64,000 bases of DNA, from assembly GCA_016176685.1 (NCBI GenBank), contig JACOWS010000001.1, positions 78,113 through 142,112 of the forward strand, in the 5' to 3' direction. Within the stretch, counting starts at the first letter, position 1. Every line of letters starts with the position of its first letter. This DNA comes from Patescibacteria group bacterium. GTDB lineage: Bacteria > Patescibacteriota > Minisyncoccia > Phycocordibacterales > SBAW01. The notes under the pieces are model-generated. The model was given only the letters and a program-made list of their open reading frames with translations, made no database searches and had not been told where the DNA came from. Position numbers and translations under genes: made by a program. This document shows, in pieces, positions 16,787 to 34,903 of this stretch.

Positions 16787-17185
16787 ATGTTGAGCGACTT
16801 CCCACAACTTTTGGCGTACGGGTTTTTTGCACCCACGCTCCTGCGCGCGGCGGCGGCGTTTGTGTTTTTTTACCTGGCGTACTACCACTTTAAGCATAAA
16901 GAGCAGATAGCCCACACCCGCTTCCCTGTGGTGGGTGAAGGGGTTTGGATAGCGTGGTTTGCCGTTGCGGTTGAGTTTTCCCTCGCGGCGGCACTGCTTC
17001 TGGGCTGGCATACACAAGTAGCATCGGCGTTTGGTGTCGTTGTGGCATTTAAACAGCTATTTTGGCACGGGAAGTATCCAGGCTTTTTTGTGTTTTCGCG
17101 CTCCACATCATTCCTCCTCTTGGCCGTCTGCGCCTCGCTTTTGGTAAGCGGCGCCGGCGCGCTTGCGCAAGACCTGCCGCTGTAA
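16787..17185 (+). CDS. DoxX-like small membrane protein
   Basis: 132 aa, 4 TM helices. Confidence 0.4.
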   Translation: MLSDFPQLLAYGFFAPTLLRAAAAFVFFYLAYYHFKHKEQIAHTRFPVVGEGVWIAWFAVAVEFSLAAALLLGWHTQVASAFGVVVAFKQLFWHGKYPGFFVFSRSTSFLLLAVCASLLVSGAGALAQDLPL

Positions 17186-17282
17186 AACGGATGGGAAATG
17201 CGAGCAGGCCGAAAAAAAGTGAGTAGGACTTGGCCTAGCGGCCCGGAGTGCTCACTTTTTCTGGCCTGTCCGCCCTTTCCAC

Positions 17283-17783
17283 ATGATTTTAATTCTCCAC
17301 AACATACGTAGTGTCCATAATGTTGGTTCTATATTCCGCACGGCGGATGCCGCCCTCGGCCGTAGCCATACGGGCGAGGCGGGAGCTTCTAAAATAATTT
17401 TGAGCGGCTACACGCCGGGACCCACCGACCGCTTTGGCTACCCAAGAAAAGACTTCACAAAAGTGTCGCTTGGCGCGGAAAATATGGTGGCTTGGGAACA
17501 AACAAAAACGCTTGGCGCGGCAATAAAAAAACTTAAAAAAGAAAACTGCTACGTGGTTGCTGTCGAGCAGGACAAAAGCGCCACTTCCCTCTTTACCTAC
17601 AAGCCGCCTAAAAATAAAAAACTTGCGCTTGTTTTAGGCAACGAGGTCCGCGGCCTTTCCAAAAGTGCGCTTAACCTGTGCGACGCAATTGTAGAAATCC
17701 CCATGCGCGGCAGCAAGGAGTCTTTAAATGTTTCCGTCGCCGCCGGTGTGGCGATGTTTGCACTGATACATTTGACAACTTAG
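17283..17783 (+). CDS. SpoU/TrmH-family (SPOUT) RNA 2'-O-methyltransferase
   Basis: LVLGNEVRGLS ... SLNVSVAAGVAMFAL trefoil-knot SAM-binding motifs. Confidence 0.8.
   Translation: MILILHNIRSVHNVGSIFRTADAALGRSHTGEAGASKIILSGYTPGPTDRFGYPRKDFTKVSLGAENMVAWEQTKTLGAAIKKLKKENCYVVAVEQDKSATSLFTYKPPKNKKLALVLGNEVRGLSKSALNLCDAIVEIPMRGSKESLNVSVAAGVAMFALIHLTT
17721..17765 (+). repeat. direct repeat copy 1 (15 codons SLNVSVAAGVAMFAL, 3' end of trmH-like gene)
   Basis: 45 nt repeated at 18423-18467 with only synonymous differences (tta/ctc, aat/aac, gtt/gtc). Confidence 0.8.
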
Positions 17784-17799
17784 CATATTACTGTACAAT
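17772..17799 (+). promoter_or_regulatory. sigma-70-like promoter (TTGACA-16-TACAAT)
   Basis: TTGACA 17772-17777 and TACAAT 17794-17799, 16-nt spacer, about 40 nt upstream of ATG 17840 with GGAGGGGG RBS. Confidence 0.4.
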
Positions 17800-17839
17800 A
17801 CTTCATTGGTTGAACATGAACAAACCCTTGGAGGGGGCC

Positions 17840-18371
17840 ATGACCAAGCAGCCGACGAAAGACATCCGAGTGGAGGTAAGTGTGCGTAATAATCTCCTTC
17901 TCACCGCGATGGAGGAGAGGGGGATCAAAAGTGTAAAAGAGCTATGGCGACAGCTTGGGGTGCCTGCTTCATACAGTCAGCTCGCCCTGCTCGCCGCGAT
18001 GAAGATCGCGGCTCGTAAAAACAACGGCGATTGGCTGGGCATAGCCCATAGGCTGGCAGATTTTTTCCGATGCTTGCCTGAGGACCTCTTTAGTGAACCT
18101 CAGCAATATGAGGCACTGAAAAAGAACCGCGCGAGAGCGCGTCATTCGTTTGCGCTTTGGATTTGAAACCGGGGAAGGAAAAACCCTGCAAGAAATCGGG
18201 GAAAAGATGGGGTTGTCCCCTTCCCGCGTAGCCCAAATAGAGCACGAAGCTCTGCGAAAGCTTAAAGGTGGTGCCGGGTACAGAAACCTTTTAATGGCGG
18301 GACTGAAGGAAGTTCGCCGCTCCGGATACCGAACCCTTAGGCCAGATGATGAGGTGCTCAAAGCCCTCTAA
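17840..18371 (+). pseudogene. frameshifted gene for a small protein with C-terminal sigma-70 region-4 HTH
   Basis: frame 1 (17840-18166) ends ...RARHSFALWI*; overlapping frame 2 (from 18150) reads RFGFETGEGKTLQEIGEKMGLSPSRVAQIEHEALRKLK, the canonical LRFG...TL.EIG....S.ERVRQIE.KALRKL region 4.2; a 1-nt frameshift near 18150-18166 separates them. Confidence 0.5.
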
Positions 18372-18389
18372 GAGTCGGTAAGATTCGAA

Positions 18390-18424
18390 ACTCGCTACCA
18401 ACAAATGGTAGCGAGTCTTTTTTC
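18390..18424 (+). terminator. rho-independent terminator
   Basis: ACTCGCTACCA-ACAA-ATGGTAGCGAGT hairpin followed by CTTTTTTCTCTC. Confidence 0.55.
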
Positions 18425-18467
18425 TCTCAACGTCTCCGTCGCCGCCGGTGTGGCGATGTTTGCACTA
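18423..18467 (+). repeat. direct repeat copy 2 (encodes the same 15 aa then LN-stop)
   Basis: see copy 1; lies just after the cassette terminator and 95 nt before tRNA-Lys. Confidence 0.8.
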
Positions 18468-18561
18468 CTAAACTAACATTAGCCCTCTCCAGTACAGAAA
18501 AGAAGGAGGTTGAAGCGTGGGGTGGCGACTCGAACCTGTGTCTGGTATAATATTACGGTAA

Positions 18562-18634
18562 CCGCCCGTAGCTCAGTTGGTAGAGCAGGAACCTTTTAAG
18601 TTCAAGGTCGCAGGTTCGATCCCTGCCGGGCGGA
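18562..18634 (+). tRNA. tRNA-Lys (anticodon TTT)
   Basis: CCGCCCG/CGGGCGG acceptor, GCTC-AGTTGGTA-GAGC D-arm, anticodon loop CTTTTAA, GCAGG-TTCGATC-CCTGC T-arm; close to E. coli tRNA-Lys body. Confidence 0.85.
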
Positions 18635-18635
18635 C

Positions 18636-19469
18636 ATGGAAAGTTTTAAGCATAGATGCGTTGTGCTACGGAAACAAGATTACTCTCTCTTGGAAATAGC
18701 TAGGATAACCGGTAGGCCGAAGTCATCAGTGTATTTCCATATCCGCAACATACCGCTCAGCCCTAGGAAATATCAAAAAATACACGCACTCAATATACAA
18801 CACCTTCTTCGGGTTGCCCGATCTAGAAAAGGAAAGAGTATAAGGGAGTTTAAAAAAATCTACCGATGGAACCCGGAGAATGTATCGCTAGTTGCCCACC
18901 TTCTTTTCGATGGCGAAATAAAACGAAGTGGTTGTGTATACAATAACCGCAACAAAATATTGTTAAAAAAGGTCGAGGTGAGTATGAAGAAGATGTATCG
19001 TTTTTCTCCAACACGCTATTACAACCCAAACACCGGTGTCTCACGAATAAGTTATTTTAACGTGGCACTAGGAAATTACATGGAGCAAAAAGCAAAAGAA
19101 CTGTGGCAGTGTCTTGGGGAATTACCTCTTGAGACTAAAAGGTCTTTTCTTCGGGCCTTTTTCGACGATGAGGGGTGCATCGATTTTAGACCAAAAACAA
19201 ATTCTAGAAGGATACGCGGCTACCAAAAAGATATCGCAATACTGGAACACGTTTCGCAAGCGTTGCGTAATTTTGGCATTACATCAAGAATCCAAAAACC
19301 AAATGAGGTGGTTATTACCGGCCGCAATAATTTGATCATGTTTCAAAAAGAGATAGGGTTTACCGCTGGAGTGTATATCAACGGGAACCGATCAAATAGT
19401 ATCTGGAAAAAACATCTAGAGAAGCGAGAAATCCTCGCCAGAGCAATTCACTCATATATTAAAGTGTGA
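18636..19469 (+). CDS. LAGLIDADG-family homing endonuclease (double-motif, free-standing)
   Basis: two LAGLIDADG-type motifs LVAHLLFDGEI and LRAFFDDEGCI about 100 aa apart; N-terminal HTH-like LLEIARITGRPKSSVYFHI; GC about 38% versus about 60% in flanks; starts 2 nt after tRNA-Lys. Confidence 0.75.
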   Translation: MESFKHRCVVLRKQDYSLLEIARITGRPKSSVYFHIRNIPLSPRKYQKIHALNIQHLLRVARSRKGKSIREFKKIYRWNPENVSLVAHLLFDGEIKRSGCVYNNRNKILLKKVEVSMKKMYRFSPTRYYNPNTGVSRISYFNVALGNYMEQKAKELWQCLGELPLETKRSFLRAFFDDEGCIDFRPKTNSRRIRGYQKDIAILEHVSQALRNFGITSRIQKPNEVVITGRNNLIMFQKEIGFTAGVYINGNRSNSIWKKHLEKREILARAIHSYIKV

Positions 19470-20040
19470 GTGCGAAACGCTCCAAAAGGAGTTCTAGGTC
19501 GCCCAAGCCGCGGTGGGAGTCGTGGTACATCCACACAATCTGCCGCGAGAGTGCCGCATCTTTCATGGCCCTGGCCTTCCAGGCCAACAAACCGGCAAGG
19601 GCCTCGGGCTTCTCCCCCGCGCGCAGTGCCGCCGTGAGCCCCAACCATAGTTTTTTCTTGTCGCGCGCGCCCAATGCCGCGGCAAGTCCAAACCGGTCAA
19701 ATGTGAACTCTTCTTTTTTTGGCTTCTCAATTTTTTCTATTGTTGCCCCTGCTTTGGCAAGCGCGTCGGTTTCTTTTTTTAAAAGTTTTTCTTCTTCAAA
19801 GATAAAGGTGTGGGGCGAGCCAGCAAGCTCTTTTGCCATGTCTATAAACTCCTCCCTGCGCGCACCGGCAAGCGCCCCCACCAGCACAAAAATGCGCGCG
19901 CCGCCAAACAAAGCTTGTGTTGTTGCAAGTGCCACTACTTCCTCTAACGAAATTACTTCCCACTTTATTTCTTCGCTTCCCTTGGGTCGCCTTTTTTGTC
20001 CAACAATTACGGTAATCATAACGGTTTCATTTCTCCCCAA
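19459..20040 (-). CDS. hypothetical protein, possibly short DNA polymerase III delta (HolA)-like
   Basis: weak resemblance to HolA domains I-II (FGGARIFVLVGA...; ...TFIFEEEKL...AKAGATIEKIEKP); immediately upstream and co-directional with polA; overlaps the 3' end of the homing-endonuclease gene by 11 nt. Confidence 0.35.
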   Translation of the reverse strand: MGRNETVMITVIVGQKRRPKGSEEIKWEVISLEEVVALATTQALFGGARIFVLVGALAGARREEFIDMAKELAGSPHTFIFEEEKLLKKETDALAKAGATIEKIEKPKKEEFTFDRFGLAAALGARDKKKLWLGLTAALRAGEKPEALAGLLAWKARAMKDAALSRQIVWMYHDSHRGLGDLELLLERFALTL

Positions 20041-32012: not shown

Positions 32013-33110
32013 CTACCGGTTCATGGGCATGGCGAGGTAGAGGAAGGACTCGTCGGAGGAGTCTCTTACCAAAAGCGGTTTGCCGGGGCCGTTAGTCTGT
32101 AGGCGGACACTGTCGCCCACAATAGATTGTAAGCTGTCTGACAGGTAACGACTGTTAAAGTTCATGGTAGCCATTTCGCCGGAAATAGTGGCTTGTATAG
32201 TGGTGGTTTGCTCGCCGACATCCGGGTTGCGCGAGGAAAGGAGTATGGATTTTTTTGAAGGTTCAAAAGTAAGCGACACCTGAGAAAATTTGTCGGAAAA
32301 TATGGAGAGTGATTTAAGCGCCTGTGCAACATCCTCCCTAAGTACAATGGCTTCTGTGGTAAACGTTTTTGGTATTATTTGTTTATAGTTTGGGAATGCA
32401 CCGTCTATAATCCTACTGGTGTAATATACATTCCCCACCTGTGTGGATATCTGATTTTCGTTGTAATAGAGCACGGTTTCTCCTCCCACCACTTCCAAAA
32501 TACGCACCAGTTCTGCAACATTTCTAGATGGTATGAGTAATTGCGGTACATTTCCACCAGACCGCAGTGCTATGGTTTTTTCAGCAAGACGGAAGGAGTC
32601 TGTGGCGGCGGATATGATTTTTCCTCCCTCACCATACACCAAAACGCTTTGAAGTTCCGGTTTTATTGTTGATGTTGAGGTACTATACATCACACTACGC
32701 AGTAGTTTCACAAAATCTGCTGATTTTATTGAAAAAGATGCTGTTGCTGACACGCGCGGCAGTGCCGGAAAGTCTTCATGTGGAATTGTTTTTATTGAAG
32801 CCGTAGAGCGTTCTGTTTCTAATTTACACATCTCTCCCACTAAAGTAACCGAGGTTGTTTTACCGCGCGCATTACTCAAAAAACCGGCTAATATGGAACC
32901 TGGTATGGCAACAGTTCCTTTTTCATTAACTTTTGCCGGTATAGAAATCTCTACACCACACTCAAGATTTGTTGCGTGCAATACTACCCGACCTCCATCC
33001 GCAGTCACAAGGATACTGGAGAGTACCGGTAAGTTTGCTCGCCGTTCAATAAACCTAACCACGGTAGCAACAGCAGTACTAAACTCTTGCGTATTACAAT
33101 TAAACTTCAT
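32013..33110 (-). CDS. dnaN: DNA polymerase III beta sliding clamp
   Basis: 365 aa, three-domain beta-clamp pattern starting MKFNCNTQEFSTAV...; immediately downstream of dnaA. Confidence 0.85.
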   Translation of the reverse strand: MKFNCNTQEFSTAVATVVRFIERRANLPVLSSILVTADGGRVVLHATNLECGVEISIPAKVNEKGTVAIPGSILAGFLSNARGKTTSVTLVGEMCKLETERSTASIKTIPHEDFPALPRVSATASFSIKSADFVKLLRSVMYSTSTSTIKPELQSVLVYGEGGKIISAATDSFRLAEKTIALRSGGNVPQLLIPSRNVAELVRILEVVGGETVLYYNENQISTQVGNVYYTSRIIDGAFPNYKQIIPKTFTTEAIVLREDVAQALKSLSIFSDKFSQVSLTFEPSKKSILLSSRNPDVGEQTTTIQATISGEMATMNFNSRYLSDSLQSIVGDSVRLQTNGPGKPLLVRDSSDESFLYLAMPMNR

Positions 33111-33319
33111 AACTTTCTAATTATTTTCTTATATATAAAAGATTAGTGCTATTAGGGTTGTGTATAGCCTTAATAACCTTAATAAATGTTGTTATATATA
33201 GTAATATAGGGAAAAAACTAGACGTATAGGTTGGTGATTGTGTCTCATAAGTTTGTATATAATTCTGTAAAAATATTTTTTTGTTTTTTATTTTCATACA
33301 TTTCCCTACTATATACACA
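33111..33319. other. AT-rich dnaA-dnaN intergenic region, candidate oriC/DNA unwinding element
   Basis: 209 bp at roughly 25% GC with A/T tracts between dnaA stop and dnaN start; degenerate DnaA-box-like 9-mers (TGTGTATAG, TATACACAC). Confidence 0.35.
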
Positions 33320-34654
33320 CTATTTCAACATAAGGCGTATTTGATGCACCTCTTGCCCTAATAAACTGTCGGTTATGATATCTCTTTTTACTTTGTCACA
33401 TGAGTGTATAACGGTGGTATGATCTCGACCACCCATTTTGTCTCCTATTGATGGGAAAGAGATATGAAAATCTTCACGTAAAATATACATAATAACCTGT
33501 CGCGGCCGCACTATCTCCTTTCGACGTGTTTTTTCGTAAATACTATTTTCATCAATACCGTAGAAGTCTGCAATAGTTTTTACCACCTCTTGTACCGACA
33601 CCACTTTTTTAGGGCTGCCTGCGCCACGCAGTAATACCTTTGCATCGGCGAGGGTTAGTTCGCGCCCGCGCATCTCAAAGTTTATAAGAAGAGTATTAAG
33701 CGCACCCTCAAGCTCACGCACATTCCCTTCCACAGTACTGGCAAGGTATTCAAGCACCTCGTCTGGGAGTATAAAGTTGTGTTGTATTGCTTTGGTTCGC
33801 ACAATAGCGAGCCGCGATTCGTGGTCCGGTGCGGTTATTGAAACGATCATACCCGCGTTGAAACGAGACTTTATTCTGTCTTCGAGATTTTGTATAAGGT
33901 TGGGATGCTGGTCTGAAGAAAAGACCAATTGTTTGTTACTGTCATGCAGGAAGTTAAAAAGGTGAAAAAATTCTTCCTTCGTTTTTTCCATTTTTGCCAA
34001 AAACTGCACATCGTCCATTATTAAAAGATCATATTGCCGGTATTTTTCCTTAAACCACTGCATCTTGCCCGACTGTACCGAGGACACATAGTCCATAGCG
34101 AACTTTTCAGACGTGAGGTAATGTACTTTTCGATCCGGAGTGCTCACTCTAAAATGGTTTCCTATTGCCTGTATAAGGTGTGTTTTACCCAAACCGGTTG
34201 GTCCGTACACTAAAAGCGGATTGTAGGCGATACCCGGACTACGTATAACGGCTTGCGCGGCCGCATGTGCCAGCTCGTTAAAAGGCCCCACCACAAATGA
34301 GGAAAAGGAAAAACGCGGGTTAAGGTTTGTTTTTGTATGGACCGCTTCGAGTTGGAGCTCGGTGGGTGCCGCGGGCGGCCGCATCTCCTCGATTGCCTTT
34401 TTGGGCCCGCGGGAGATAACATACTCCACATTGCGTATAGAGTCGGAAAGATTGCGTAAAGAGCCGAGAATATCTTTATGAAATTTAGTAGAGAGCCAAT
34501 CGCGGGCAAATTGTGATGGCACACCAAGGTGCACCACGCCGTCGTCTACCCGTAGTATGTGTGTATCTTTAAACCAGGTATTAAAATTAGGCCGCGAGAT
34601 AGAAATTTCAAGCTCCACTAATGCGTTTTCCCAAAGTTCTTTCGTGGTAGTCAT
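33320..34654 (-). CDS. dnaA: chromosomal replication initiator DnaA
   Basis: AAA+ Walker [11 protein letters not shown], Walker [11 protein letters not shown]-terminal DNA-binding domain (..[13 protein letters not shown]); start taken at [12 protein letters not shown]. Confidence 0.9.
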
Positions 34655-34768
34655 ACGGGTGTGCGGTACGACAAGGATACGCGAGCGAACCCAATGCGTC
34701 AAAAATCGTTCCATTACCTTTTTTGTGCACAAGTTGTGGAGAATTGGTGGATATCGTATAGTAGACAG

Positions 34769-34903
34769 ATGTCGCAAACATACCAACCTAAAAAAAGAAA
34801 AAGAGCCCGCACGCACGGGTTTCTTAAGCGCTCCAAGAGCACCAGCGGCCGCAGGACCCTTGCTCGCCGCCGTCGCAAGGGGCGGGCGCGCATTGCAGTG
34901 TAA
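34769..34903 (+). CDS. rpmH: 50S ribosomal protein bL34
   Basis: [44 protein letters not shown] matches L34 consensus. Confidence 0.85.

What the first reader, a model, noticed from the sequence alone, without database searches (positions are those of the whole stretch)
17721..18467. Self-contained gene cassette inserted at the 3' end of a SpoU/TrmH gene, flanked by duplicated 15-codon gene ends
The last 15 codons of the trmH-like gene (SLNVSVAAGVAMFAL) occur twice, at 17721-17765 and 18423-18467. The copies differ only at synonymous positions and have different short tails (IHLTT-stop versus LN-stop). Between them lie a consensus-like sigma-70 promoter (TTGACA-16-TACAAT), a strong RBS, a frameshifted gene whose C-terminus is a textbook sigma-70 region-4 HTH, and a rho-independent terminator. 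This is the footprint of an element that integrates into the 3' end of a protein gene and carries a replacement end. tRNA-Lys and a homing-endonuclease gene follow within 100 nt.
Basis: seen in the sequence. Interest (0 to 1): 0.6.

Follow-up and report, generated by a model that had tools for sequence, protein, structure and literature searches.

The report
Integrase-less gene cassette inserted in trmH end
A 0.7-kb piece of foreign DNA carrying one dead regulator gene was recombined into the last codons of a tRNA/rRNA methyltransferase gene of an uncultivated Patescibacteria bacterium, leaving the gene intact and its old end behind; a related lineage has unrelated DNA at the same spot, so this is a recurrent insertion site with no visible recombinase.

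Summary
The trmH end SLNVSVAAGVAMFAL occurs twice, 702 nt apart, with a 32-nt exact core. All five differences are synonymous and lie outside the core. Between the copies sit a near-consensus promoter, an RBS, a sigma-region-4 gene and a terminator. tRNA-Lys and a LAGLIDADG ORF follow.

One correction: the gene is not broken by a 1-nt frameshift. It has lost about 40-45 codons in an out-of-frame deletion, with the junction at 18126-18134.

Related genomes keep the gene order murE/DoxX/trmH/…/tRNA-Lys/holA-like/polA. Three of them have trmH followed directly by tRNA-Lys, which is the empty-site arrangement. The downstream copy has the usual two-residue tail (LN). The trmH copy has an unusual one (IHLTT).

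A second lineage (L136-138) has a 1.7-kb insert of unrelated genes flanked by a 23-nt repeat of the same trmH codons. Again the native-type tail is on the downstream copy.

Neither insert encodes a recombinase. None was found within about 15 kb on either side, in the syntenic relatives, or as a phage attP.

Best reading: a single-crossover insertion at the trmH 3' end that carries a substitute gene end. The insert is now non-autonomous and decaying, like a CIME. RecA-driven integration after DNA uptake is a serious rival. This is a new variant of a known kind, of moderate interest.

The parts
17283..17783 (+). trmH/SpoU-type RNA 2'-O-methyltransferase gene (166 aa). It is intact, and its last 5 codons are supplied by the insert.
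   Evidence: Pfam SpoU_methylase 1.3e-31 over residues 1-159. 7686 homologues, the closest 77% identical.
17721..17765 (+). Repeat copy 1 (attL-like): trmH codons S147-L161. The exact core is 17733-17764.
17766..17783 (+). Substitute gene tail IHLTT plus stop, which overlaps the cassette's -35 box.
   Evidence: Sequence. This tail is unique among the 120 closest homologues.
17772..17799 (+). Sigma-70-type promoter TTGACA-16-TACAAT of the cassette gene.
   Evidence: 11 of 12 matches. Function is inferred.
17840..18166 (+). N-terminal part of the HTH-sigma4 gene (Cro/C1-like HTH domain), with RBS GGAGG at 17830-17834. It runs into a stop after the deletion junction.
   Evidence: Alignment with P0002-P0012. 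tblastn HSP 17840-18154. NCBI calls it hypothetical protein HYS79_00575 (P0001).
18126..18134 (+). Deletion junction (ACCGCGCGA). It reads as homologous sequence in both frames. About 40-45 codons are missing and the frame shifts by +1.
18120..18371 (+). C-terminal part of the same gene in the +1 frame: sigma-70 region 4 (RVIRLRFGF…TLQEIG…SPSRVAQIEHEALRKLK).
   Evidence: Sigma70_r4 6e-14. The family profile hits SigA/RpoD region 3.2-4 at 1e-28. tblastn HSP 18135-18368.
18390..18426 (+). Rho-independent terminator (11-bp stem, 5-nt loop, T tract). The T tract runs into repeat copy 2.
18423..18476 (+). Repeat copy 2 (attR-like): a relic of the trmH end, codons S147-L161 plus the native-type tail LN-stop. 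The exact core is 18435-18466. It has no start codon and no upstream trmH homology.
18546..18551 (+). TATAAT box 10 nt upstream of tRNA-Lys, with a weak -35 TGGCGA at 18523-18528. Possible tRNA promoter.
   Evidence: Read from the sequence. It was not reported by the consensus scan, so it is inferred only.
18562..18635 (+). tRNA-Lys(UUU), the conserved neighbour of trmH in this clade.
   Evidence: ARAGORN. Rfam tRNA 68 bits. Synteny.
18636..19469 (+). LAGLIDADG-type homing-endonuclease-like ORF (277 aa) that abuts the tRNA. It is an independent insertion and not part of the cassette.
   Evidence: LAGLIDADG_3 5.6e-11. GC 0.405. 56%-identical ORF at the same position in L033.

Best explanation
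About 0.7 kb of foreign DNA was integrated into the chromosomal trmH gene. The mechanism was one conservative (reciprocal) crossover between the native trmH 3' end and a trmH-end look-alike carried on the incoming, presumably circular, DNA.

The exchange took place inside the 32-nt identical core, which encodes SVAAGVAMFAL, the conserved SpoU C-terminal motif. It produced two junctions:
- An attL-like junction: native trmH joined to an incoming tail (IH-LTT-stop). This keeps the methyltransferase complete.
- An attR-like junction: 12 nt of incoming trmH-like sequence joined to the native tail (LN-stop). This is a non-functional relic in front of tRNA-Lys.

The cargo is a complete transcription unit (promoter, RBS, gene, terminator) for a two-domain regulator, with an N-terminal Cro/C1-like HTH and a C-terminal primary-sigma region 4 but no region 2. 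A later microhomology deletion of about 0.13 kb killed this gene.

The insert has no recombinase. It is therefore non-autonomous. It is either the decayed stump of a site-specific integrative element (CIME-like), or a small passenger that a recombinase encoded elsewhere inserted. I lean slightly towards a site-specific recombinase acting in trans or since lost.

What is shown: the repeat anatomy, the insertion relative to the conserved synteny, the native and non-native tails, the dead cargo, the absence of a recombinase, and recurrence of the same site in another lineage. What is inferred: the circular intermediate, the position of the crossover, and the identity of the recombinase.
For: The repeat has a 32-nt exact core. 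All 5 differences are synonymous and lie outside it. The chance that the 4 left-hand differences all fall in the first 12 of 44 nt is 0.0036.

Synteny murE-like/DoxX-like/trmH/…/tRNA-Lys/holA-like/polA is conserved. Empty-site arrangements occur in L028, L033 and L039.

The tail of copy 2 (LN) is the common type: 73 of 120 homologues have a 2-residue tail, and 'FALLN' is exact in P0019. The tail of copy 1 is unique.

There is a second, independent case in L136-138, seen in 3 assemblies and 14 contigs. A 23-nt exact repeat of the same codons (VAAGIAMF) lies 1692 nt apart. The upstream copy has an extended tail. The downstream copy reads VAAGIAMFALLH-stop and lies next to tRNA-Lys. The cargo is unrelated: a broken NTase-like gene plus an Exo_endo_phos gene.

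That cargo pair occurs elsewhere in L146 (68% identity over 1575 nt), with a possible trmH-tail relic at the same end (P = 0.006).

The cargo gene is degenerate. No recombinase lies in or near the insert. The CIME concept (att sites kept, integration genes lost) is described in PMC5704250. Integrative elements usually target a conserved gene while preserving its function (abstract of PMC7192596).
Against: No integrase was seen in either insert, in the roughly 10 syntenic relatives, or anywhere in window 8.6-36 kb.

No phage contig in IMG/VR carries the degenerate core as an attP. The only hits were chance matches inside a tape-measure gene.

The sequences flanking the core in the two inserts are not significantly similar, so there is no sign of shared arm sites.

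The closest relatives with empty sites are only 66-73% identical in TrmH. No same-species empty site, and no circular form, has been seen.

The relic's codons (CTC AAC GTC) fit host codon usage better than the codons inside trmH (TTA AAT GTT). That is the opposite of the simplest expectation.

Only one assembly contains the window locus (one contig; not on record).
Confidence: 0.6

Rival explanations
1. Homology-driven integration without any site-specific recombinase. DNA taken up by natural transformation from another Patescibacteria strain carried that strain's trmH 3' end plus its downstream neighbour gene. Integration was by RecA, in one of two ways:
- A Campbell-type single crossover of a circularised fragment in the 23-32-nt identical stretch.
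- One-sided homology-facilitated illegitimate recombination. Here the left end recombined within trmH, and the right end joined by microhomology (TCTC) to the recipient's own trmH at codon 147. This duplicated the gene end.
For: Both inserts lack a recombinase, and their cargo is ordinary chromosomal genes that are found elsewhere without repeats. The sigma-like gene lies upstream of alaS in L004, L012, L107 and L113. The NTase/EEP pair lies in L146.

The flanks outside the core are unrelated between the two inserts.

The identity blocks of 23 and 32 nt are about the minimal length that RecA needs (own knowledge of the MEPS in E. coli). The core encodes the most conserved TrmH motif, so different lineages share identity there.

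The genome encodes RuvA, RuvB, RuvC and a PilB-like ATPase. Patescibacteria are reported to keep homologous recombination and competence genes (PMC12455944).

The relic's codons are more host-like than those inside trmH, and trmH GC3 is 0.53 against 0.61-0.69 for its neighbours.
Against: Homology of 23-32 nt is at the lower limit for RecA.

The one-sided model makes the 32-nt perfect identity, next to 4 differences in 12 nt, a coincidence or the result of later gene conversion.

No donor genome with the sigma-like gene directly downstream of trmH was found among the homologue contexts examined.

The same polarity and the same codons in two lineages fit a defined site at least as well as they fit homology.
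Confidence: 0.3
2. An old, fixed local rearrangement rather than a mobile insertion. The trmH end was duplicated in situ, for example by replication slippage or unequal exchange around a resident gene. The arrangement is simply inherited, and the core is kept identical by gene conversion.
For: No same-species empty site or circular junction is available. The cargo gene is already decaying. Synonymous-only differences could also arise if only the functional copy kept evolving under selection (reasoning).
Against: Related genomes lack the cassette and have trmH next to tRNA-Lys.

The two tails differ in type.

The differences cluster at the core edges instead of being spread along the repeat.

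An unrelated cargo sits between the same repeats in another lineage.

Both halves of the cargo gene remain open apart from the single deletion, which argues that the insertion is young.
Confidence: 0.07
3. Assembly artefact. The metagenome assembler joined two strains or loci through the shared 32-mer, and no real molecule has both copies.
For: The locus is known from one MAG contig only.
Against: Copy 2 is physically continuous with the cassette terminator on its left and lacks any upstream trmH sequence. A trmH fragment fused to the cassette must therefore exist on a real molecule.

A 32-nt repeat is shorter than the larger k-mers of current assemblers (own knowledge).

The same architecture was assembled independently at least three times in L136-138.
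Confidence: 0.03

Closest known systems
CIMEs (cis-mobilizable elements), e.g. those at the 3' end of fda in Streptococcus thermophilus. They are defined as elements that lost their integration and transfer genes but kept attL and attR (PMC5704250; the fda example is from my own knowledge).
   Same: Small non-autonomous DNA is flanked by direct repeats made from the 3' end of a conserved protein gene. The target gene stays intact. There is no integrase in cis and the cargo is decaying.
   Different: No related autonomous element with the same att specificity was found. The insert is far smaller (0.7 kb, one gene). The host is a Patescibacteria bacterium and the target is trmH. Whether the insert ever had an integrase is unknown.
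Prophages and cryptic elements that integrate into the 3' end of a protein gene and bring a replacement end, classically phage 21 and e14 in E. coli icd (own knowledge). More generally, integrative genetic elements that preserve the target gene (PMC7192596 abstract).
   Same: The gene end is duplicated and the differences are mostly synonymous. An exact crossover core lies inside a longer similar segment. The displaced native end is left as a relic.
   Different: Those elements are kilobases long and encode a tyrosine or serine integrase next to the att site. Here the element has no integrase, and its only gene is a regulator pseudogene.
Homology-facilitated illegitimate recombination and Campbell-type integration during natural transformation (own knowledge of work in Acinetobacter and Streptococcus pneumoniae).
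   Same: Foreign DNA is anchored by a short stretch of identity in a conserved gene. No element-encoded recombinase is needed. The cargo is arbitrary.
   Different: Those events usually delete recipient DNA rather than duplicate it. The recurrence of the same 23-nt stretch with the same polarity in two lineages is not a known feature.
Integron gene cassettes.
   Same: Single-gene units that are added at a fixed chromosomal position, with different cargo at the same site in different genomes.
   Different: Integron cassettes are promoterless, end in an attC palindrome, and are inserted by IntI at attI without duplicating host coding sequence. None of these features is present.
Sigma-70 family factors (for the cargo gene).
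   Same: The C-terminal 70-85 residues match region 3.2-4 of primary sigma factors: profile against PDB SigA/RpoD 1e-28, Pfam Sigma70_r4 and PHROG 351.
   Different: There is no region 2, so no -10 recognition or core-binding module. The N-terminus is instead a Cro/C1-like HTH (HTH_26/HTH_3, below cutoff; PHROG repressor hits for P0012). GenBank phages contain no full-length member.

Membership tests
Site-specific integrative element (prophage/ICE/IME/genomic island) | Encodes its own tyrosine or serine integrase | tested here: not met
   The only ORFs between the repeats are the two halves of the HTH-sigma4 gene (Pfam). All proteins tested from window 8.6-36 kb are housekeeping.
Site-specific integrative element (prophage/ICE/IME/genomic island) | Flanked by direct repeats (attL/attR) that contain an identical core | tested here: met
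   44-nt repeat with a 32-nt exact core.
Site-specific integrative element (prophage/ICE/IME/genomic island) | Integration preserves the target gene by supplying a substitute end; an empty site exists in relatives | tested here: met
   trmH is full length against the SpoU profile. trmH is directly followed by tRNA-Lys in L028, L033 and L039. The relatives are distant, at 66-73% TrmH identity.
Site-specific integrative element (prophage/ICE/IME/genomic island) | Excision to a circular form, or presence/absence polymorphism within a population | not testable with these tools
   This needs the raw reads of the source metagenome. The exact TrmH protein is not on record in the contig index.
CIME (cis-mobilizable element) | Retains attL and attR but has no integration or transfer genes | tested here: met
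   Definition from PMC5704250.
CIME (cis-mobilizable element) | Derives from, and can be mobilised by, a related autonomous element with the same att specificity | tested here: inconclusive
   No integrase-bearing element was found at trmH in the roughly 10 syntenic relatives. No attP-like core was found in IMG/VR. Sampling was limited to the loci fetched.
Integron gene cassette | Promoterless ORF followed by an attC imperfect palindrome, next to intI/attI | tested here: not met
   The cassette has its own 11/12 promoter and an intrinsic terminator. The repeats are direct copies of coding sequence. No integrase lies nearby.
IS element / MITE / transposon | Terminal inverted repeats, a short target-site duplication and a transposase | tested here: not met
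   There are no inverted repeats at the insert ends. The duplication is 44 nt with a mosaic of differences. There is no transposase.
Sigma-70 family sigma factor (cargo gene) | Region 2 (core binding and -10 recognition) together with region 4 | tested here: not met
   Only Sigma70_r4 is found in the window gene and in all full-length homologues. PDB profile matches are confined to profile positions 113-198.
SpoU/TrmH RNA methyltransferase (target gene) | Full-length match to the SpoU_methylase domain, including the C-terminal motif | tested here: met
   Residues 1-159 match profile positions 2-142 of 142, E = 1.3e-31.
LAGLIDADG homing endonuclease (neighbouring ORF) | LAGLIDADG domain; free-standing gene at a conserved site with presence/absence among relatives | tested here: met
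   LAGLIDADG_3 5.6e-11. It sits at the same position after tRNA-Lys in L033 (56% identity) and is absent from L028, L039 and L136. Nuclease activity was not tested.

The most novel reading that the evidence does not exclude
The conserved 23-32-nt stretch of trmH that encodes (S)VAAG(I/V)AMF may be a dedicated cassette-capture site in Paceibacteria-type Patescibacteria. On this reading, small integrase-less DNA circles, each carrying a trmH-end mimic plus arbitrary cargo (a regulator, or an NTase/EEP pair), are inserted and exchanged there. The agent would be a recombinase encoded elsewhere in the host or on a helper element, or an unusually efficient short-homology pathway linked to natural competence. 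This would be a chromosomal gene-acquisition platform that works like an integron or an IMEX but has neither attC/IntI nor dif/Xer sites.
Probability: 0.15. Interest if true: 0.7.

Novelty: new variant of a known kind. Interest (0 to 1): 0.42.

Why it matters
Patescibacteria (CPR) have tiny genomes, are mostly uncultivated, and how they acquire genes is poorly known. This locus shows at nucleotide resolution how a single gene was added to such a genome without damaging an essential-type RNA-modification gene. The same few codons of trmH have been used at least twice with different cargo and with no recombinase in sight.

If the recurrence reflects a defined recombination system, it would be a new route of gene capture in this phylum and a possible handle for genetic tools. 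If it reflects RecA acting on about 25-30 nt of identity after DNA uptake, it documents how conserved gene ends act as landing pads for transformation-driven gene gain. In either case the cargo here is dead, so the physiological effect on this organism is probably nil.

Tried and rejected
1. A programmed or simple 1-nt frameshift at the A5 run (18119-18123) was considered. A +1 slip there would restore the frame. It is rejected because all full-length homologues have about 40-45 extra residues between 'KNRA' and 'REERV'.

2. I searched the window for a second copy of the cassette or of the sigma-like gene. There is none.

3. I searched for an integrase or phage genes around the locus. All proteins tested from 8.6-36 kb are housekeeping.

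4. I looked up the exact TrmH protein to find other assemblies of the same species. It is not on record.

5. I scanned IMG/VR for the degenerate core GTNGCNGCNGGNRTNGCNATGTTYGC as a phage attP. It gave only two chance hits, both inside a tape-measure gene of a high-GC phage.

6. I looked for trmH-end relics next to other members of the sigma-like family (56 loci). There are none. I looked for flanking direct repeats around those genes. There are none except an unrelated interspersed repeat in L008.

7. I tested for shared arm sequences between the window insert and the L136 insert. The similarity is not significant (P = 0.26 and 0.44). The TTTTTTC that lies 12-13 nt upstream of both attR cores may be coincidence.

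8. I tested for homology between the two tails beyond the core within the window. It is not significant (P = 0.57).

9. I examined other TrmH homologues with long tails as possible further cases (P0079 in L139-141, P0115 in L144, P0073 in L145). None has a duplicated end.

10. An Rfam scan of 17100-19600 found only the tRNA.

11. A search of GenBank phages for full-length relatives of the cargo protein matched only the region-4 part.

12. The homing endonuclease as the cause of the duplication is rejected. L136 has the duplication without the endonuclease, and L033 has the endonuclease without the duplication.
Full report
**What is in the sequence**

The window comes from a Patescibacteria (CPR) metagenome-assembled genome. 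The N-terminal ORF of the cassette is NCBI protein HYS79_00575 of 'Patescibacteria group bacterium' on a 143,526-bp contig.

trmH (17283-17783, 166 aa) is a full-length SpoU-type methyltransferase gene (Pfam 1.3e-31). Its last conserved codons, SLNVSVAAGVAMFAL, occur at 17721-17765 and again at 18423-18467.

The two copies share a 32-nt exact core at 17733-17764 and 18435-18466. That core is found nowhere else in the window, and no shuffle of the window contains it. Five nucleotides differ over the 15 codons, and all five changes are synonymous. Four lie in the 12 nt left of the core and one lies immediately right of it. If the four were placed at random, the chance of all falling in the first 12 of 44 positions is 0.0036.

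After the repeat, the trmH copy continues IHLTT-stop and the downstream copy continues LN-stop. Upstream of the second copy there is no further trmH homology. It starts inside the T tract of a terminator.

**The cassette**

Between the copies lie four features:
- A TTGACA-16-TACAAT promoter at 17772-17799, matching 11 of 12 positions. Its -35 box is formed by the substitute tail codons of trmH.
- GGAGG, 5 nt before the ATG at 17840.
- A gene in two frames.
- An intrinsic terminator at 18390-18416 with an 11-bp stem. The region folds with z = -4.5.

The gene's C-terminal part is sigma-70 region 4 (Pfam 6e-14).

A database search found eleven full-length relatives (P0002-P0012) of 202-303 aa, ten of them 202-241 aa. 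They are 34-45% identical to the window gene. In the alignment the window gene lacks the segment between 'KNRA' and 'REERV'. tblastn gives one HSP for homologue residues 1 to about 105 (17840-18154) and another for residues from about 144 onward (18135-18368). The two HSPs overlap by 20 nt in different frames.

The sequence ACCGCGCGA at 18126-18134 reads as N-R-A in one frame and as T-A-R in the other. Both readings are homologous to the family. The defect is therefore an out-of-frame deletion of about 40-45 codons across a microhomology, not a single-base frameshift. Both halves are otherwise open, so the inactivation looks recent.

**What the cargo gene is**

A profile of the family matches region 3.2-4 of primary sigma factors (SigA/RpoD) at 1e-28. 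The match covers only profile positions 113-198. PHROG 351 'RNA polymerase sigma factor' matches the same part.

The N-terminal half resembles Cro/C1-type HTH domains. The Pfam hits are below cutoff, and the most distant member, P0012, hits PHROG repressor families. There is no region 2, so the protein is not a sigma factor in the defining sense.

Members occur in three kinds of context:
- As lone chromosomal genes in Patescibacteria. In four contexts the gene lies upstream of alaS (L004, L012, L107, L113).
- Between gyrB and pheT (L001), or between rnc and smc (L120).
- In phage-like contigs (L007 with YqaJ and CHAP genes; L014 upstream of a terminase).

None of these 56 loci has a trmH fragment beside the gene. 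GenBank phages contain only region-4 matches. The cargo is thus a horizontally acquired extra copy of a regulator family. It is not the hallmark gene of a mobile element.

**Is it an insertion?**

Eighty species-representative genomes with a TrmH relative were fetched. The closest share the order ruvA / murE-like / DoxX-like / trmH / … / tRNA-Lys(UUU) / … / holA-like / polA / tsaE / pilB-like / ruvB, exactly as in the window.

In three relatives the trmH stop lies close to tRNA-Lys: 52 nt in L028, 61 nt in L033 and 134 nt in L039. This compares with 85 nt from the relic's stop in the window.

Among the 120 closest TrmH proteins, 73 end two residues after the motif, typically with L followed by K/R/N/Q/H. 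'FALLN' occurs exactly in P0019, and IHLTT occurs nowhere else. The downstream relic therefore carries the native-type end, and the functional gene carries a foreign end.

Other relatives have different small genes between trmH and tRNA-Lys or holA:
- An HTH_17 plus Fic pair (L027).
- uppS (L030).
- An FkbM-type methyltransferase (L029).
- HIT plus TrmB genes (L144).
- A 135-aa ORF (L139).

This interval is therefore a hotspot for variable genes.

**A second case at the same codons**

In L136, L137 and L138 the TrmH protein is P0027, 73% identical to the window's. The locus was assembled independently from three sequencing runs and is found on 14 contigs. There trmH ends …VAAGIAMFAILKNKTWSEDQAEWIFTRFDG-stop.

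The 23-nt sequence GTAGCCGCCGGCATTGCGATGTT recurs 1692 nt downstream. There it reads VAAGIAMFALLH-stop, a typical native tail, and it is followed by tRNA-Lys, holA-like and polA.

The cargo is unrelated to the window's. It is an NTase-like gene on the minus strand, broken relative to its 250-aa relative, and an Exo_endo_phos gene. Again there is no recombinase.

The 23-nt core covers the same TrmH codons (V152-F159) as the window core.

The same gene pair occurs in L146 in a different neighbourhood, at 68% DNA identity over 1575 nt. Just beyond its left end, L146 has ATGTTGCTGACTTTAAAATGA, which reads …AVMLLTLK-stop and resembles a TrmH tail. Its local alignment to the L136 attL has P = 0.006 against dinucleotide shuffles. 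This suggests, without proving, that a trmH-end fragment travels with the cargo.

**Mechanism**

The anatomy has four elements: an exact core, homologous but diverged sequence on both sides of it, a substitute end on the gene, and the native end displaced to the far side of the insert. A single reciprocal crossover between a chromosomal site and a look-alike site on a circular DNA produces exactly this.

Phages and islands that integrate into the 3' ends of protein genes produce it too. The classic example is icd with e14 or phage 21 (own knowledge). In general, integrative elements preserve the function of the gene they target (PMC7192596 abstract).

What is missing is the recombinase:
- There is none in either insert.
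- There is none among the proteins tested from window 8.6-36 kb.
- There is no integrase-sized unexplained ORF at this site in the syntenic relatives.
- No phage attP has this core in IMG/VR.

The nearest described category is therefore the CIME, a decayed element that keeps attL and attR but has lost its integration genes (PMC5704250). The parent element was not found, so membership stays open.

The main rival is recombinase-free integration by RecA after natural transformation. Several observations favour it:
- The identity blocks of 23 and 32 nt are about the minimal processing length for RecA (own knowledge).
- The genome encodes RuvABC and a PilB-like ATPase.
- Patescibacteria are reported to be competent and proficient in recombination (PMC12455944).
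- The flanks of the two inserts are unrelated.
- The relic's codons CTC-AAC-GTC fit host usage better than TTA-AAT-GTT inside trmH (TTA is 6% of Leu codons and AAC is 65% of Asn codons). trmH also has a lower GC3 than its neighbours. Together these would fit import of the trmH 3' part along with the cassette.

I cannot decide between these two with the data at hand. I give the general single-crossover insertion a confidence of 0.6, with a slight preference for a site-specific enzyme acting in trans or since lost. I give the RecA version 0.3.

An in-situ duplication (0.07) does not explain the different tail types, the clustering of differences, or the second lineage. An assembly chimera (0.03) is unlikely for two reasons. 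The relic is continuous with the cassette terminator, and the same architecture was assembled three times independently in L136-138.

**Neighbours**

The LAGLIDADG_3 ORF (18636-19469) starts directly after tRNA-Lys and has a GC content of 0.405, against 0.513 for the window. A 56%-identical ORF occupies the identical position in L033, which lacks the cassette. L136, which has a duplication, lacks this ORF. The endonuclease gene is thus a separate mobile gene in the same hotspot. It did not cause the duplication.

**Verdict**

The cassette is not demonstrably a mobile element in its own right, its gene is dead through a deletion, and no recombinase is in evidence.

The new and more interesting point is that the same few trmH codons were hit at least twice by unrelated, integrase-less cargo in related Patescibacteria. 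This is a new variant of a known kind (att-flanked, non-autonomous inserts at the 3' end of a conserved gene). It is of moderate interest (0.42). It becomes considerably more interesting only if a dedicated capture mechanism is shown.

Noticed in passing
window 18636-19469 (and L033 3606-4433): A LAGLIDADG-type ORF begins 1 nt after the 3' end of tRNA-Lys(UUU). It is AT-rich (GC 0.405 against 0.513 for the window). A 56%-identical ORF sits at exactly the same position in a genome whose TrmH is only 66% identical. It is absent from L028, L039 and L136. It looks like a free-standing homing endonuclease gene with a fixed site at the tRNA-Lys 3' flank.
   Followed up: partly
L136 8427-8449 and 10119-10141 (also L137, L138): An independent 1.69-kb insert of unrelated cargo (a broken NTase-like gene plus an Exo_endo_phos gene). 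It is flanked by a 23-nt exact repeat of the same trmH codons, and the native-type tail (FALLH-stop) is on the downstream copy next to tRNA-Lys.
   Followed up: yes
L146 477-497 and 540-2133: The NTase-like/Exo_endo_phos pair that forms the L136 cargo occurs in an unrelated neighbourhood, at 68% DNA identity over 1575 nt. It is preceded by a short sequence reading …AVMLLTLK-stop, which resembles a TrmH C-terminus (alignment to the L136 attL, P = 0.006). This may be a travelling trmH-end fragment.
   Followed up: partly
L001, L004, L012, L107, L113, L120, L007, L014 (family of window 17840-18371): A two-domain protein family (Cro/C1-like HTH plus primary-sigma region 3.2-4, no region 2; about 200-240 aa). 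In Patescibacteria it is a lone chromosomal gene, lying upstream of alaS in four of the contexts examined. It also occurs in phage-like contigs. GenBank phages have no full-length member. Its function is unknown. It could be a sigma-region-4 mimic or an activator.
   Followed up: partly
L008 73-109, 1152-1208, 2899-2957, 3881-3936: This contig carries the closest full-length homologue of the cargo gene. Every intergenic gap in it holds a repeat of about 60 nt (AACCnTTATCTATACATA…CCCCCCATCCTTGGGTATACCCCC), so each gene is bracketed by repeats as in a cassette array. The nature of the repeat is unknown.
   Followed up: partly
interval between trmH and the holA-like gene in L027-L033, L136, L139, L144 (window 17784-19458): The interval is a variable hotspot within otherwise rigid synteny. 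Depending on the lineage it contains nothing, an HTH_17+Fic pair, uppS, an FkbM-type methyltransferase, HIT+TrmB genes, or small unknown ORFs. tRNA-Lys lies in either orientation.
   Followed up: partly
window 18437-18458 (also 17735-17756): The repeat core contains an imperfect dyad, CGTCGCCGC-CGGT-GTGGCGATG, with 9 pairs as RNA including 2 G-U. It could be a recombinase-type symmetric site, or simply a consequence of the Ala/Gly codons.
   Followed up: no
window 17283-17783 versus neighbouring genes: trmH has a lower GC3 (0.53) than its neighbours murE-like, DoxX-like and polA (0.63-0.69). It uses the rare Leu codon TTA three times. The relic copy uses host-preferred codons. This may mean that part of trmH was imported together with the cassette.
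   Followed up: partly
window 32013-34816: dnaN and dnaA lie about 14-17 kb from the cassette, so the locus is close to the presumed replication origin.
   Followed up: no
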